A stretch of 64,000 nt of DNA. Origin: Escherichia coli (lineage in GTDB: Bacteria > Pseudomonadota > Gammaproteobacteria > Enterobacterales > Enterobacteriaceae). Position 1 is the first letter of the stretch, and every line of letters begins with the position of its first letter. The stretch lies in NCBI RefSeq assembly GCF_011045215.1, contig NZ_CP049201.1; one strand, 5' to 3'. This document shows positions 25,621-32,842 of the stretch, piece after piece. A model generated the notes under the pieces. The model was not told the origin of the DNA and searched no databases. It saw only the letters and a list, made by a program, of their open reading frames with translations. The position numbers and the translations under genes were made by a program.

Positions 25621-25886
25621 ATGCCCCTCACAATCTTTTAAAGATTAAGTGTAGGACAGTACACAGGTTAACCAGCAAAAGGATTTGTCATTTTTTCGTC
25701 AGTTGTATTGATCCCCTTCAGGATTGTAAGGGGATGTTTTGCATCGTTTATCGATAACGGGTAGGATGCTGCGCCGATAGTTTTATACCCATAAAGAATA
25801 ATGGTGATAACTATCATCGCCAGGATGAATAAACATTGTTCATGGCAACTTATATGACTTTTTCATTAAAGCAATCAGGGAGAGCA

Positions 25887-27500: not shown

Positions 27501-28562
27501 TTACAGCGCAATACGAATCACATCGTCCGGCTGGGTAGCTTCCTGCTGTTTAGTGGATTTTTGTTTTACACTGACATACAGCGTTTTGCCATCGGCAGAC
27601 AGCGCCAGGCTGTTCGGATGAGTCGGCGTATCGAACGTTTTCACCACTTTATAGCTTTTCGCGTCAATCACACTGACTTTACCTGCCTGACGATGCGTTA
27701 CGTAGGCTTCATTACGCGCTGGGTTAAACAGCACAGCCAGTGATTCCGGTGCCGCAACCTTCGCCAGAATATTGCCATTACGGGTATCGACCACTAACAC
27801 TTCTGCCGCTTTAGAATCGGTGATAAATGCACGCTGCCTGGCGGTATCAAGGCTAATGTTGATAAAGAAGTGCTCTTTGCCGTCATCCAGCAGCTTTTTA
27901 CGGCTGAGGATTTTATTGTCGGCGGTGTCGATGGTAATCAATTCGCCGTCAGCGTTAGTGGTGTAAAGACGTTTGCCTTTGCTATCCAGCGCCAGACCGG
28001 TACTCATTTTACCGGTGTTCTGGATGGCGGTTTTCAGTTTGATATTCTCGCCATCAACGACCCAAATCACGCTCTCTTTACCAATACCACTGATGTAAAC
28101 GGTGTTCGTGGCATCATCAGCTACCAGCTCACGCGGTTGCAGCGGGCGCACCTCTTCCGTGCGCTTACGATCATCCAGCACCAGACGGCCTTTCACTTCG
28201 CCCGTTTTGGCATCTATCGCCGTGACCGCGCTGTTTACGGTGTTACCAAACCACAACGTCTGAGTCGTGTTATTGATGGTGGCACCAAACGGCTTGAGAT
28301 CGTTATGGATCGCCTGCGTCACTTCCAGAGTGACCGGATCAAGACGATAAACCACGCCACCTTTATCCAGTTTGCGGCTTTGCGAAGTGGCGAGCCACAG
28401 TGCGTTTTCTTGCTGGCTATAAGCCATTTCGTAGGCACCTTTACCTACCGCTTTACGCAGCATTTCTTCTGCGGCCTGCGTACTGAATGATGAAGCAACA
28501 AGCAATGAACCTAACAGTAATGAACCACGCAGGCGCGATGAAAACAGATGACGTAAATGCAT
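27501..28562 (-). CDS. yncE: Periplasmic beta-propeller protein YncE (353 aa)
   Basis: Signal peptide MHLRHLFSSRLRGSLLLGSLLVASSFSTQA-AEE; length matches recalled YncE. Confidence 0.88.
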   Translation of the reverse strand: MHLRHLFSSRLRGSLLLGSLLVASSFSTQAAEEMLRKAVGKGAYEMAYSQQENALWLATSQSRKLDKGGVVYRLDPVTLEVTQAIHNDLKPFGATINNTTQTLWFGNTVNSAVTAIDAKTGEVKGRLVLDDRKRTEEVRPLQPRELVADDATNTVYISGIGKESVIWVVDGENIKLKTAIQNTGKMSTGLALDSKGKRLYTTNADGELITIDTADNKILSRKKLLDDGKEHFFINISLDTARQRAFITDSKAAEVLVVDTRNGNILAKVAAPESLAVLFNPARNEAYVTHRQAGKVSVIDAKSYKVVKTFDTPTHPNSLALSADGKTLYVSVKQKSTKQQEATQPDDVIRIAL

Positions 28563-28648
28563 GACGACTCCCTTTGATGAACCGATATTTTTGCTGCTTC
28601 ACAATGCTTCGCTAAGCGTAATCATCGTTACGCTCTTGTTATAAATGG

Positions 28649-28667
28649 GAATGGTAATCATTATTTT
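28649..28667. promoter_or_regulatory. Putative Fur box in the yncE-yncD divergent promoter region
   Basis: gaatggtaatcattatttt is close to the Fur consensus GATAATGATAATCATTATC; both flanking genes are iron-related. Confidence 0.45.
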
Positions 28668-28803
28668 CTCAAATGTGGAGCATTTCTTGCCGTTACGACT
28701 ACAATTTTCTCAATTACTTAACGTATCGTGCCGTTTCGTTTCCCATAAATTTACAATTTCATTACCATAACGGCGTTTTCCCATTCTTAACCTGGCTTTT
28801 TTC

Positions 28804-30906
28804 ATGAAGATTTTTTCCGTCCGACAGACCGTTTTGCCCGCACTACTTGCCCTTTCCCCCGTTGTTTTTGCCGCTGATGAACAGACCATGATTGTCAGTG
28901 CCGCACCGCAGGTGGTTTCAGAACTGGATACCCCAGCAGCAGTAAGCGTGGTGGATGGCGAGGGGATGCGCCTGGCAACACCGCGCATTAACTTGTCCGA
29001 ATCACTGACCAGCGTGCCTGGTTTGCAGGTACAAAATCGGCAGAACTATGCGCAAGATTTACAGCTGTCGATTCGCGGATTTGGCTCCCGCTCCACTTAC
29101 GGAATTCGCGGTATTCGCCTGTATGTGGACGGTATTCCCGCTACCATGCCCGACGGGCAAGGGCAAACATCCAACATCGATTTAAGCAGTGTGCAAAATG
29201 TGGAAGTGCTGCGTGGCCCCTTCTCTGCCCTGTATGGCAACGCGTCTGGCGGTGTAATGAATGTCACCACCCAGACCGGGCAACAGCCACCAACCATTGA
29301 AGCCAGCAGTTACTACGGCAGTTTTGGCAGCTGGCGCTATGGGCTCAAAGCAACGGGTGCAACGGGCGACGGCACACAGCCCGGCGATGTCGATTACACC
29401 GTCTCAACCACGCGTTTTACGACCCACGGCTATCGTGACCATAGTGGCGCACAGAAAAATTTAGCTAATGCCAAACTGGGCGTACGCATTGATGACGCCA
29501 GCAAATTAAGCCTGATTTTCAATAGCGTGGATATCAAAGCAGATGACCCTGGTGGGCTAACCAAAGCAGAATGGAAAGCGAATCCGCAACAAGCGCCACG
29601 CGCTGAACAATACGACACGCGAAAAACCATCAAGCAAACTCAGGCTGGGTTGCGCTATGAACGTAGCCTGAGTTCGCGGGATGATATGAGTGTGATGATG
29701 TATGCCGGAGAGCGAGAAACGACCCAGTACCAGTCAATACCCATGGCACCACAACTTAACCCGTCACATGCGGGCGGCGTGATTACCCTGCAGCGCCATT
29801 ACCAGGGAATAGACAGCCGCTGGACACACCGTGGTGAACTGGGCGTTCCGGTCACGTTCACTACCGGCCTGAACTACGAAAACATGAGTGAAAACCGCAA
29901 GGGCTACAATAACTTCCGCCTGAATAGCGGCATGCCGGAGTACGGGCAAAAAGGTGAGTTGCGTCGCGACGAACGCAATCTGATGTGGAACATCGATCCC
30001 TATTTACAGACGCAGTGGCAGCTGAGCGAAAAACTGTCGCTGGATGCTGGCGTGCGCTACAGCTCCGTGTGGTTTGATTCCAACGACCATTACATTACTC
30101 CGGGTAACGGCGATGACAGCGGTGATGCCAGTTATCACAAATGGCTACCAGCCGGATCGTTAAAATATGCAATGACCGATGCCTGGAATATCTATCTGGC
30201 AGCCGGGCGTGGTTTTGAAACGCCGACGATTAATGAGCTGTCTTATCGGGCTGATGGGCAAAGCGGTATGAACTTTGGTTTAAAACCATCCACCAACGAT
30301 ACAATTGAGATCGGCAGTAAAACGCGTATTGGTGATGGGCTGCTTAGTCTCGCATTGTTCCAGACCGACACCGATGATGAAATTGTTGTCGATAGCAGTA
30401 GCGGTGGGCGTACGACTTACAAAAATGCTGGAAAGACCCGTCGTCAAGGCGCTGAACTGGCATGGGATCAACGTTTCGCGGGAGATTTTCGCGTAAACGC
30501 GTCCTGGACCTGGCTTGATGCGACCTATCGCAGCAATGTTTGCAATGAACAGGATTGTAACGGTAATCGGATGCCAGGGATCGCCCGTAATATGGGCTTT
30601 GCGTCGATAGGTTATGTACCGGAAGATGGCTGGTATGCAGGCACGGAAGCGCGTTATATGGGCGATATTATGGCAGATGATGAAAATACGGCCAAAGCGC
30701 CGTCTTATACTCTCGTCGGCTTATTCACCGGGTATAAATACAATTACCACAATTTAACTGTGGATTTATTTGGTCGTGTCGATAATTTATTCGATAAAGA
30801 ATACGTTGGTTCTGTCATTGTCAATGAGTCAAACGGGCGATATTACGAACCTGCGCCCGGGCGAAATTATGGTGTCGGCGTGAATATAGCATGGCGATTT
30901 GAGTAA
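28804..30906 (+). CDS. yncD: TonB-dependent outer-membrane receptor YncD (700 aa)
   Basis: Signal peptide, TonB-box-like DEQTMIVSA, plug and barrel features, C-terminal aromatic (WRFE). Confidence 0.88.
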   Translation: MKIFSVRQTVLPALLALSPVVFAADEQTMIVSAAPQVVSELDTPAAVSVVDGEGMRLATPRINLSESLTSVPGLQVQNRQNYAQDLQLSIRGFGSRSTYGIRGIRLYVDGIPATMPDGQGQTSNIDLSSVQNVEVLRGPFSALYGNASGGVMNVTTQTGQQPPTIEASSYYGSFGSWRYGLKATGATGDGTQPGDVDYTVSTTRFTTHGYRDHSGAQKNLANAKLGVRIDDASKLSLIFNSVDIKADDPGGLTKAEWKANPQQAPRAEQYDTRKTIKQTQAGLRYERSLSSRDDMSVMMYAGERETTQYQSIPMAPQLNPSHAGGVITLQRHYQGIDSRWTHRGELGVPVTFTTGLNYENMSENRKGYNNFRLNSGMPEYGQKGELRRDERNLMWNIDPYLQTQWQLSEKLSLDAGVRYSSVWFDSNDHYITPGNGDDSGDASYHKWLPAGSLKYAMTDAWNIYLAAGRGFETPTINELSYRADGQSGMNFGLKPSTNDTIEIGSKTRIGDGLLSLALFQTDTDDEIVVDSSSGGRTTYKNAGKTRRQGAELAWDQRFAGDFRVNASWTWLDATYRSNVCNEQDCNGNRMPGIARNMGFASIGYVPEDGWYAGTEARYMGDIMADDENTAKAPSYTLVGLFTGYKYNYHNLTVDLFGRVDNLFDKEYVGSVIVNESNGRYYEPAPGRNYGVGVNIAWRFE

Positions 30907-31804: not shown

Positions 31805-32842
31805 TTAATCATCACCCGCCACGCGGATCACCACTTTGCCGAAGTTTTTACCCTTCAGCAGGCCGATAAACGTCTGTGGCGCATTCTCTAAACCGTCAGT
31901 AATTTCTTCTCGGTAGTGGATTTTATCCTCTTTCACCCATTGCCCCATCTCCTTCTGAAACTCATGGATGCGGTGACCATAATCCTGAGCGATAATAAAC
32001 CCTTGCAAGCGAATACGTTTTTTCAGCACCGTTGCCATCAACAGGGGTAAACGATCCGGACCGGGTGGTAGCTCTGTAGCGTTATAGCTGCTCACTAATC
32101 CGCAGACGGGAATGCGCGCAGATGTATTAAGTAATGGTAGCACTGCATCAAATACCTTACCGCCCACGTTTTCATAATAGATATCAATACCTTTTGGGCA
32201 CGCTTTCGCCAGTTGTTCGGCAAAATCATCCGCGTGGTGATCAAGACAAACATCGAAGCCTAACACCTCGGTAGCATGGCGGCATTTTTCCGCGCCACCG
32301 GCTACCCCCACCACTCTGCAACCTTTAAGTTTGCCGATTTGCCCCACCGTCGCCCCCACTGGTCCTGTCGCCGCAGCTACCACCAACGTTTCGCCCTCTT
32401 TAGGCTGACCGATATCCAGTAGGCCCATATAAGCGGTAAAGCCTGGCATCCCTAGCACACCCAGCGACCACGATGGATTTTGCGGATGATCGCCAAGTTT
32501 CACCAGATCATCACCACTGGATATGTCATAGTCTTGCCATCCACTGTAGCCCAGCACCCAGTCGCCAGACTGATAATCAGGATGATTCGACTCCACGACA
32601 CGGCTCACCGTACCGCCGACCATCACGCCGCCAATATCAACCGGCGGTGAATAAGATGGCTCATCGCTCATACGTCCACGCATATACGGGTCCAGGGACA
32701 AATAAACTGTGCGCAGTAACACCTGTCCTTCACCCGGTGTGGCGACATCATCTTCTTCAAGACGGAAATTCTCCGGAACCGGTGCGCCATGTGGACGCGA
32801 GGCCAGAACCCAACGTCGATTACGCTGCTTTTGTTGCCCCAT
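31805..32842 (-). CDS. curA: NADPH-dependent curcumin/dihydrocurcumin reductase CurA (YncB)
   Basis: MGQQKQRNRRWVLASRPHGAPVPENFRLEE; MDR/zinc-independent oxidoreductase; 345 aa. Confidence 0.88.
   Translation of the reverse strand: MGQQKQRNRRWVLASRPHGAPVPENFRLEEDDVATPGEGQVLLRTVYLSLDPYMRGRMSDEPSYSPPVDIGGVMVGGTVSRVVESNHPDYQSGDWVLGYSGWQDYDISSGDDLVKLGDHPQNPSWSLGVLGMPGFTAYMGLLDIGQPKEGETLVVAAATGPVGATVGQIGKLKGCRVVGVAGGAEKCRHATEVLGFDVCLDHHADDFAEQLAKACPKGIDIYYENVGGKVFDAVLPLLNTSARIPVCGLVSSYNATELPPGPDRLPLLMATVLKKRIRLQGFIIAQDYGHRIHEFQKEMGQWVKEDKIHYREEITDGLENAPQTFIGLLKGKNFGKVVIRVAGDD

What the first reader, a model, noticed from the sequence alone, without database searches (positions are those of the whole stretch)
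28563..28803. Fur-box-like site in the yncE/yncD divergent promoter
The sequence gaatggtaatcattatttt at 28649-28667 is near the Fur consensus and lies between a TonB-dependent receptor gene and yncE, which fits iron-responsive control of one or both genes.
Basis: partly seen in the sequence, partly recalled or inferred. Interest (0 to 1): 0.3.

Follow-up and report, generated by a model that had tools for sequence, protein, structure and literature searches.

The report
Known Fur operator of yncE promoter
The flagged sequence is a real, already published binding site for the iron-sensing repressor Fur that shuts off the E. coli gene yncE when iron is plentiful, so it is correct but ordinary.

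Summary
The window is E. coli. The 241-bp gap 28563-28803 separates yncE (- strand) from pqqU/yncD (+ strand). The best Fur-box register is 28647-28665 (GGGAATGGTAATCATTATT), which matches the consensus at 15 of 19 positions and is the top 19-mer in the window. A PWM built here from 19 other K-12 Fur promoters scores it 14.7 bits, also the window's top hit. A second site shifted by 6 bp (28641-28659) scores 12.0 bits.

Published data settle the function. The CFT073 Fur ChIP-seq summit maps to 28661, and the K-12 ChIP-exo peak maps to 28643-28655. yncE rises 9- to 280-fold in fur mutants of eight strains. The box core is invariant across more than 20 enterobacterial genera, always about 75-88 nt before the yncE start codon.

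Both candidate -10 hexamers lie inside the box, so promoter occlusion is the likely mechanism. This step is inferred because I found no TSS data.

pqqU imports PQQ, not iron. It is reported as not Fur-regulated in MG1655, but it rose 4- to 8-fold in W3110 and 042 fur mutants.

The site is already known and of low interest. Side observations are a covarying 5'UTR hairpin and a conserved RyhB-complementary block.

The parts
28647..28665 (.). Core 19-bp Fur box GGGAATGGTAATCATTATT (+ strand); it reads AATAATGATTACCATTCCC on the yncE strand
   Evidence: It matches the consensus at 15/19, the best in the window. The PWM gives 14.67 bits on + and 14.02 on -, the top hits in the window. The CFT073 ChIP-seq summit maps to 28661. 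The core TAATGATTA..TATTC.CA is invariant in 22 species.
28641..28659 (+). Second, overlapping Fur site shifted by 6 bp (ATAAATGGGAATGGTAATC); together with the core box it forms a 25-bp hexamer array at 28641-28665
   Evidence: The PWM gives 12.03 bits. The W3110 ChIP-exo peak 1524928-1524940 maps to 28643-28655. In other genera the same array is stronger, for example GATAATGAGAATAATAATC at 23.7 bits.
27501..28562 (-). yncE coding sequence (353 aa periplasmic beta-propeller protein), the regulated gene
   Evidence: Expression in fur-/wt is 147-fold higher in CFT073 and log2FC is 3.1-8.1 in 8 strains.
28804..30906 (+). pqqU (yncD) coding sequence, the divergent TonB-dependent PQQ importer
   Evidence: Function is. 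Fur dependence is absent in MG1655 (log2FC 0.12) and present in W3110 (2.95) and 042 (2.02).
28651..28656 (-). Candidate yncE -10 hexamer TACCAT (TACTAT in most genera). An alternative -10, AATAAT, lies at 28660-28665. Both are inside the Fur box.
   Evidence: This is inferred from the sequence and from conservation in alignment A2. I found no TSS data. The tool's promoter scan did not call it because it scores 8/12, below the 9/12 threshold.
28674..28679 (-). Candidate yncE -35 hexamer TCCACA, 17 nt upstream of TACCAT, within the nearly invariant block CTCCACATT
   Evidence: Conservation is shown. It overlaps an 11/14 marbox-like 20-mer at 28674-28693. That marbox would place RegulonDB's MarA site at -41.5 (quoted) relative to a TSS at about 28642. 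This is inference.
28615..28634 (-). Conserved hairpin in the yncE 5'UTR (AGCGTAA-CGATGA-TTACGCT)
   Evidence: The inverted repeat was found. All 7 of 7 pairs show compensatory changes across 22 species. 93% of cells are paired, against 33-50% when the partners are slid, and 0 of 500 shuffles reach the observed value. There is no Rfam match.
28599..28611 (-). RyhB-complementary block CGAAGCATTGTGA in the yncE 5'UTR
   Evidence: It matches the reverse complement of RyhB UCACAUUGCUUCC at 11/13, which 0.35% of shuffles reach. The local duplex is -20 kcal/mol. 69 of the 80 sequences scored (window plus 79 loci) have a 10-12/13 match, nearly all of them 44-49 nt before the ATG. RyhB activation of yncE is published.

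Best explanation
The 25-bp array 28641-28665 (core box 28647-28665) is the Fur operator of the yncE promoter. When iron is sufficient, Fe2+-Fur dimers bind the overlapping hexamer array. The array covers both candidate -10 hexamers and the likely transcription start of yncE, so RNA polymerase is excluded and yncE stays off. When iron is scarce, Fur leaves and yncE is transcribed at high level. RyhB, which Fur also represses, then boosts the yncE mRNA further, so Fur loss acts on yncE through two reinforcing routes. Shown by published experiments mapped here: Fur occupancy at this exact spot and Fur-dependent expression. Shown here: motif quality, uniqueness in the window and deep conservation. 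Inferred: the promoter elements, the start site and the occlusion mechanism.
For: The site is the best consensus match (15/19) and the best PWM hit (14.67 bits) in the 64-kb window, with a 6-bp-shifted partner of 12.03 bits. The CFT073 Fur ChIP-seq summit at 1711868 (height 845) maps to window 28661. The ChIP-exo peaks in W3110, and the equivalent one in MG1655, map to 28643-28655. yncE fur-/wt is 147-fold in CFT073. log2FC is 3.1-8.1 in 8 of 9 E. coli strains. YncE protein is overproduced in a fur mutant. K-12 ChIP and expression data agree. A Fur box in the yncE promoter is attributed to McHugh 2003. A Fur box of at least 10 bits lies within 130 nt of the yncE ATG in 57 of 64 species loci, with a median of 14.6 bits. 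The box core is the longest invariant block of the intergenic region. The 61-bp core is present in 5410 of 5426 complete E. coli genomes. The covarying hairpin beginning at 28634 requires a start site upstream of it, which fits a -10 inside the box.
Against: No TSS data could be retrieved, so the overlap with the -10 and the start site is inferred. The candidate promoter is weak by consensus (8/12) and the tool's scan did not call it. The PWM score alone would occur by chance about 0.5-3 times per 64 kb. The PWM was seeded with the textbook consensus, so it is not fully independent of it. A Reg-Seq supplement states that the Fur site is not annotated in RegulonDB.
Confidence: 0.93

Rival explanations
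1. The box is a shared operator: Fur bound at 28641-28665 represses both yncE and the divergent pqqU. It could do so by blocking elongation from a distal pqqU promoter located upstream of the box, or by spreading to weak sites over the proximal pqqU promoter.
For: yncD/pqqU rose 7.7-fold (log2FC 2.95, p 3e-51) in a W3110 fur mutant and 4-fold in strain 042, and the W3110 peak was assigned to both genes. A sigma70-like match on the + strand (TTCACA-16-AATCAT, 28598-28625) would start transcription near 28632, so that transcript would read through the box. Weak Fur-like sites of 7.8 bits, 6 bp apart, lie at 28748-28772 over the predicted pqqU -10. A review lists yncD/yncE among head-to-head pairs with overlapping UTRs.
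Against: MG1655 shows no change in pqqU (log2FC 0.12, p 0.39). Two groups state that pqqU is not Fur- or iron-regulated. The pqqU-proximal half of the region has no conserved Fur box: the median best score is 4.6 bits in 64 loci, and a 7.8-bit hit is expected by chance 0.1 times per 110 nt. The box is about 100 nt from the predicted pqqU -35. PqqU's substrate is PQQ, not iron.
Confidence: 0.25
2. The match is a chance AT-rich sequence, or is conserved only because it is the yncE -10/spacer, and the Fur dependence of yncE is indirect.
For: The PWM score is not rare genome-wide. Candidate -10 hexamers overlap the box, so some of the conservation could come from promoter function.
Against: ChIP-seq and ChIP-exo peaks from two laboratories, in three strains, centre on the site. 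Conservation extends over the whole 19-25 bp with a Fur-like hexamer periodicity, and the match is stronger in other genera, up to 23.7 bits. That is more than a -10 hexamer requires.
Confidence: 0.03
3. The site is mainly an operator for another regulator with a similar AT-rich palindrome (for example Zur, or H-NS nucleation), and Fur is secondary.
For: Nothing direct supports this. Fur-family boxes resemble one another. MarA is annotated at yncEp with weak confidence.
Against: The fur deletion alone gives derepression of 9- to 280-fold. Fur ChIP is positive. The Reg-Seq study did not recover the MarA site.
Confidence: 0.02

Closest known systems
Classical E. coli Fur boxes at iron-uptake promoters (fhuA, fiu, fecI, mntH, sodA, fhuF and others)
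   Same: It has the same 19-bp consensus and hexamer-array architecture. Its PWM score lies in the middle of the range of these sites (14.7 bits against leave-one-out scores of 6.8-22.5). It sits over the core promoter and gives strong derepression in fur mutants.
   Different: [quoted passage not shown] The E. coli version is a somewhat degenerate copy (G at three consensus A/T positions) of the stronger array found in Enterobacter and Lelliottia.
cirA regulation: Fur repression plus RyhB activation
   Same: Transcription is repressed by Fur and the mRNA is positively regulated by RyhB. The result is that Fur loss acts through two reinforcing routes under iron starvation.
   Different: For yncE the pairing site and the activation mechanism have not been defined in the papers I could read. 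Here I only point to a conserved complementary block at 28599-28611.
Bidirectional Fur-controlled intergenic regions fepA-fes, fepD-entS and fepB-entC
   Same: The genes are divergent with a Fur site between them.
   Different: In those regions both divergent operons are strongly Fur-regulated. Here only yncE is robustly regulated, and pqqU responds weakly and only in some strains.

Membership tests
Fur box (Fe2+-Fur operator of Enterobacteriaceae) | Sequence match to the 19-bp consensus GATAATGATAATCATTATC, or to an array of at least three GATAAT-like hexamers | tested here: met
   The site matches at 15/19 and is the top of the window. The PWM gives 14.67 bits, within the range of 19 bona fide sites, plus an overlapping 12.03-bit site shifted by 6 bp. 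Under the 7-1-7 model it matches at 11/14.
Fur box (Fe2+-Fur operator of Enterobacteriaceae) | Fur occupies the site in vivo | tested here: met
   I mapped published coordinates onto the window. The CFT073 ChIP-seq summit falls at 28661. The W3110 and MG1655 ChIP-exo peaks fall at 28643-28655. This is not an experiment of mine.
Fur box (Fe2+-Fur operator of Enterobacteriaceae) | The adjacent gene is derepressed in a fur mutant or under iron limitation | tested here: met
   The evidence is from the literature. yncE is 147-fold up in CFT073, has log2FC 3.1-8.1 in 8 strains, is 16-fold up under iron limitation, and is overproduced at the protein level in a fur mutant. For pqqU the evidence is mixed.
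Fur box (Fe2+-Fur operator of Enterobacteriaceae) | The site overlaps the core promoter (-35/-10/TSS), so that Fur excludes RNA polymerase | tested here: inconclusive
   Both candidate -10 hexamers (28651-28656 and 28660-28665) lie inside the box. The covarying hairpin requires a TSS upstream of 28634. No experimental TSS was retrieved.
Fur box (Fe2+-Fur operator of Enterobacteriaceae) | The site is conserved at orthologous promoters | tested here: met
   57 of 64 loci from more than 20 genera have a site of at least 10 bits, 74-88 nt before the yncE ATG. The core is invariant in the 22-species alignment.
Fur box (Fe2+-Fur operator of Enterobacteriaceae) | Purified metal-loaded Fur binds directly in vitro (footprint or EMSA) | not testable with these tools
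   I could not read any paper reporting a footprint at yncE. McHugh 2003, Seo 2014 and Baba-Dikwa 2008 are not held.

The most novel reading that the evidence does not exclude
The same Fur array also throttles the divergent PQQ importer gene pqqU in some strains or conditions (4- to 8-fold in W3110 and 042). It might do this by blocking a distal pqqU transcript that starts inside the yncE leader, or through weak sites over the pqqU -10. That would couple uptake of the redox cofactor PQQ to iron status. Together with the conserved RyhB-pairing block and the covarying hairpin in the yncE leader, the region would then be a compact iron-responsive control hub for both genes, not a one-gene operator.
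Probability: 0.25. Interest if true: 0.35.

Novelty: already known. Interest (0 to 1): 0.1.

Why it matters
The result confirms that reading the sequence alone can pick out a real operator, but it adds no new biology. yncE has been known as an iron- and Fur-regulated gene with a Fur box since 2003. It is a direct Fur ChIP target in several strains and a member of the Fur regulon in eight of nine strains examined. The remaining practical value is modest. One preprint supplement says the site is not annotated in RegulonDB, so exact coordinates plus conservation could support curation. YncE is a vaccine and diagnostic antigen whose expression in the host depends on this switch. Whether pqqU shares the operator is still unsettled.

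Tried and rejected
1. The consensus search with up to 3 mismatches returned nothing because the site has 4 mismatches; I replaced it with a full match-count scan.
2. I looked for an experimental yncE or pqqU TSS. The Reg-Seq supplement gives only a MarA site at -41.5 and no coordinate. The held Cappable-seq supplements contain no coordinates in this range. Wang 2015 gives no TSS. The promoter therefore remains inferred.
3. Chen et al. 2007 (Fur site clusters) does not mention yncE.
4. Seo 2014, McHugh 2003 and Baba-Dikwa 2008 are not held. What I say about them comes from papers that cite them.
5. One search hit (bioRxiv 882472) was a false match on 'yNCellulose'.
6. TATAAC (28638-28643) was rejected as the -10. 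Its start site would fall inside the covarying hairpin, and the hexamer is not conserved in Klebsiella or Raoultella.
7. Full-length RyhB/UTR duplex folding was uninformative (3% of shuffles were as good), so I used a local core comparison instead.
8. An Rfam scan of the region found nothing.
9. The MG1655 ChIP-exo table is offset by one row in the held text and uses older genome coordinates. I relied on the W3110 peak, which I could map exactly.

Full report
**Identity of the region**

The window is Escherichia coli. The ORF at 27501-28562 on the - strand is yncE (353 aa). The ORF at 28804-30906 on the + strand is the TonB-dependent receptor now called PqqU (formerly YncD). The same arrangement is found in 5411 of 5426 complete E. 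coli genomes. Compared with K-12, the window has four base differences in the intergenic region, at 28727, 28738, 28742 and 28769. All lie on the pqqU side and none lies in or near the box.

**The observation**

- The best alignment is 28647-28665, GGGAATGGTAATCATTATT, which matches GATAATGATAATCATTATC at 15 of 19 positions.
- That is the single best of all 127,964 19-mers on both strands of the window.
- The tool's search with at most three mismatches found nothing, because the site has four.

**PWM test**

- I fetched 19 upstream regions of classical Fur-regulated K-12 operons: fepA-fes, fepD-entS, fepB-entC, fhuA, cirA, ryhB, tonB, exbB, sodA, fecI, fecA, fiu, fhuE, feoA, nrdH, mntH, fhuF-yjjZ, yddA and fur.
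- I took the best site in each by a consensus-seeded iteration. yncE was left out.
- The matrix's consensus reproduced GATAATGATAATCATTATC.
- It scores the yncE site at 14.67 bits on the + strand and 14.02 on the - strand. These are the two highest scores in the window and sit in the middle of the leave-one-out scores of the training sites (6.8-22.5).
- A second site shifted by exactly 6 bp (28641-28659) scores 12.03 bits. Together they form a 25-bp hexamer array, ATAAAT GGGAAT GGTAAT C ATTATT.
- A 14.67-bit hit is expected 0.5 times per 64 kb at the window's composition, and up to about 3 times at 65% AT. The score alone is therefore not decisive. Within the 241-bp region the expectation is 0.002-0.01.
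- The matrix was seeded with the textbook consensus, so it is not wholly independent of it.

**Published experiments mapped onto the window**

- Banerjee et al. 2020 (PMC7157518) list a Fur ChIP-seq peak for yncE/yncD_1 in CFT073 at 1711868, height 845. In NC_004431.1 this is 99 nt upstream of the yncE ATG. The CFT073 sequence aligns without gaps and is identical over the box, so the summit is window position 28661, inside the box.
- Gao et al. 2023 (PMC10164565) give a 13-bp ChIP-exo peak in W3110 at 1524928-1524940. Mapped through NC_007779.1, this is window 28643-28655, sequence ACCATTCCCATTT on the yncE strand. The MG1655 peak P44 (1521238-1521250 in the older genome numbering) is the same place to within 1-2 nt.
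- In CFT073, yncE is up 147-fold in fur-, unchanged in ryhB-, and up 18-fold in fur- ryhB-.
- log2 fold changes in fur mutants are 3.1-8.1 in eight of nine E. coli strains.
- yncE rises 16-fold under iron limitation, of which about 3-fold is attributed to RyhB.
- YncE protein is overproduced in a fur mutant.
- Beauchene et al. 2015 list yncE among K-12 operons bound upstream by Fur.
- A Fur box in the yncE promoter is attributed to McHugh et al. 2003. I could not read that paper.

**Conservation**

- A scan of one genome per species returned 80 yncE loci from Escherichia, Citrobacter, Salmonella, Enterobacter, Klebsiella, Raoultella, Leclercia, Lelliottia, Kluyvera, Atlantibacter, Phytobacter, Trabulsiella and others.
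- In nearly all of them the best PWM hit within 300 nt upstream of yncE lies 74-88 nt before the ATG. It is often stronger than in E. coli, for example GATAATGAGAATAATAATC at 23.7 bits in Lelliottia.
- Of the 64 loci for which the intergenic region could be delimited, 57 have a site of at least 10 bits in the yncE-proximal 130 nt, with a median of 14.6 bits. The pqqU-proximal 110 nt have a median best score of only 4.6 bits.
- In a 22-species alignment the box core TAATGATTA(C/T)(C/T)ATTC.CA is the longest invariant block of the whole intergenic region.
- Within E. coli the 61 bp around the box are present at 95% identity or better in 5410 of 5426 genomes.

**Mechanism**

No experimental transcription start could be retrieved, so this part is inference.

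- On the yncE strand the nearly invariant block CTCCACATT gives a -35-like TCCACA (28679-28674). Seventeen nt downstream lies TACCAT (28656-28651; TACTAT in most genera). No indels occur between them in any species.
- An alternative -10, AATAAT, lies at 28665-28660.
- Both candidates are inside the Fur box. Both are weak by consensus (8/12), and the tool's scan did not call them.
- Two indirect observations favour a start near 28642-28652.
  - A hairpin at 28634-28615 covaries strongly, so it must be transcribed. All 7 of 7 pairs show compensatory changes, 93% of cells are paired against 33-50% in the slid controls, and 0 of 500 shuffles reach the observed value. This excludes the better-looking TATAAC (28643-28638) as the -10.
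  - An 11/14 marbox-like 20-mer at 28674-28693 overlaps the -35. It would put RegulonDB's weak MarA annotation at -41.5 (quoted) relative to a start at 28642.
- On either candidate, Fur bound to 28641-28665 covers the -10 and the start site. The likely mechanism is therefore ordinary promoter occlusion.

**pqqU**

- The predicted pqqU core promoter has a -10 TACCAT at 28763-28768, which falls in the conserved block ATG(T/G)TAA of the alignment. It lies about 100 nt from the box.
[quoted passage not shown] PqqU imports PQQ, not iron.
- In the Gao et al. data, MG1655 agrees (log2FC 0.12, p 0.39). However, W3110 shows log2FC 2.95 (p 3e-51) and strain 042 shows 2.02, and yncD is filed in the accessory Fur regulon.
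- Possible routes for such control are weak 7.8-bit sites at 28748-28772 over the pqqU -10 (expected by chance 0.1 times per 110 nt), or a sigma70-like match at 28598-28625 on the + strand whose transcript would have to pass the box.
- A review lists yncD/yncE among head-to-head pairs with overlapping UTRs.
- I rate shared control at about 0.25.

**Comparison and verdict**

- The site meets the sequence, occupancy, regulation and conservation criteria for a Fur box. Promoter overlap is inferred, and in vitro binding could not be checked.
- It works like the classical Fur operators. Because RyhB also activates the mRNA, it most resembles cirA.
- The site is already known, so interest is low.
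The register is 28647-28665, extended to 28641-28665. The robustly controlled gene is yncE, not the TonB-dependent receptor.

**Side observations**

- The yncE leader carries the covarying hairpin. It has no Rfam match.
- Immediately 3' of the hairpin, a block CGAAGCATTGTGA (28611-28599) matches the reverse complement of the RyhB core UCACAUUGCUUCC at 11/13. A 10-12/13 match is found in 69 of the 80 sequences scored (window plus 79 loci), nearly always 44-49 nt before the ATG, and 0.35% of shuffles reach 11/13.
- RyhB activation of yncE is published. A review notes that CopraRNA predicted only about -5 kcal/mol for this pair. The block is therefore a candidate for the unmapped pairing site.

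Noticed in passing
window 28615-28634 (- strand, yncE 5'UTR): The hairpin AGCGTAA-CGATGA-TTACGCT shows strong covariation across 22 enterobacterial species. All 7 of 7 pairs have compensatory changes and 93% of cells are paired. The loop C(G/C)ATGA is conserved. There is no Rfam family. It may be a 5'-proximal stabiliser or part of the RyhB-responsive leader.
   Followed up: yes
window 28599-28611 (- strand): The block CGAAGCATTGTGA is complementary (11/13) to the RyhB core UCACAUUGCUUCC. The consensus in other genera is GGAAGCnATGTGA. It sits at a fixed position 44-49 nt before the yncE ATG in most genera. It is a candidate pairing site for the published RyhB activation of yncE, which CopraRNA reportedly ranked poorly.
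   Followed up: partly
window 28715-28734 (and 28674-28693), - strand orientation: A marbox-like 20-mer ACGGCACGATACGTTAAGTA matches AYnGCACnnWnnRYYAAAYn at 13/14 and lies in a block conserved in all genera (TAACnGCACATTgCGTTAA), just upstream of the predicted pqqU -35. A weaker 11/14 marbox overlaps the predicted yncE -35. RegulonDB is quoted as annotating MarA at -41.5 of yncEp, which Reg-Seq did not recover.
   Followed up: partly
window 28748-28772 and about 28912-28948: Two weak Fur-like sites of 7.8 bits, 6 bp apart, lie over the predicted pqqU -10/-35. The MG1655 ChIP-exo table also lists an intragenic peak without a motif inside yncD/pqqU (old coordinates 1520944-1520980, about 108-144 nt into the CDS). 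Either may relate to the strain-dependent Fur effect on pqqU.
   Followed up: partly
window 28598-28625 (+ strand): The only sigma70-like match the tool called in the region is TTCACA-16-AATCAT. It lies inside the yncE leader and points toward pqqU. A transcript from it would cross the Fur box and be antisense to the start of the yncE mRNA. A review lists yncD/yncE as head-to-head genes with overlapping UTRs.
   Followed up: no
window 25797-25815: A near-palindromic Fur-like site AATAATGGTGATAACTATC (14/19 on both strands, 10.9 bits) lies 72-90 nt upstream of the annotated ansP start, between yncG and ansP. ansP fell 2.6-fold in the MG1655 fur mutant (log2FC -1.39) but not in W3110. I saw no ChIP peak listed there.
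   Followed up: partly
window 32173-32191: The window's highest-scoring Fur PWM hit outside the yncE box is GGTATTGATATCTATTATG (13.9 bits, - strand). By coordinate transfer from K-12 it lies inside the curA coding sequence. It is probably a chance match.
   Followed up: no
L001 (CFT073 NC_004431.1 1709622-1711725): pqqU is annotated as a frameshifted pseudogene in the uropathogen CFT073, while yncE and its Fur box are intact and identical.
   Followed up: no
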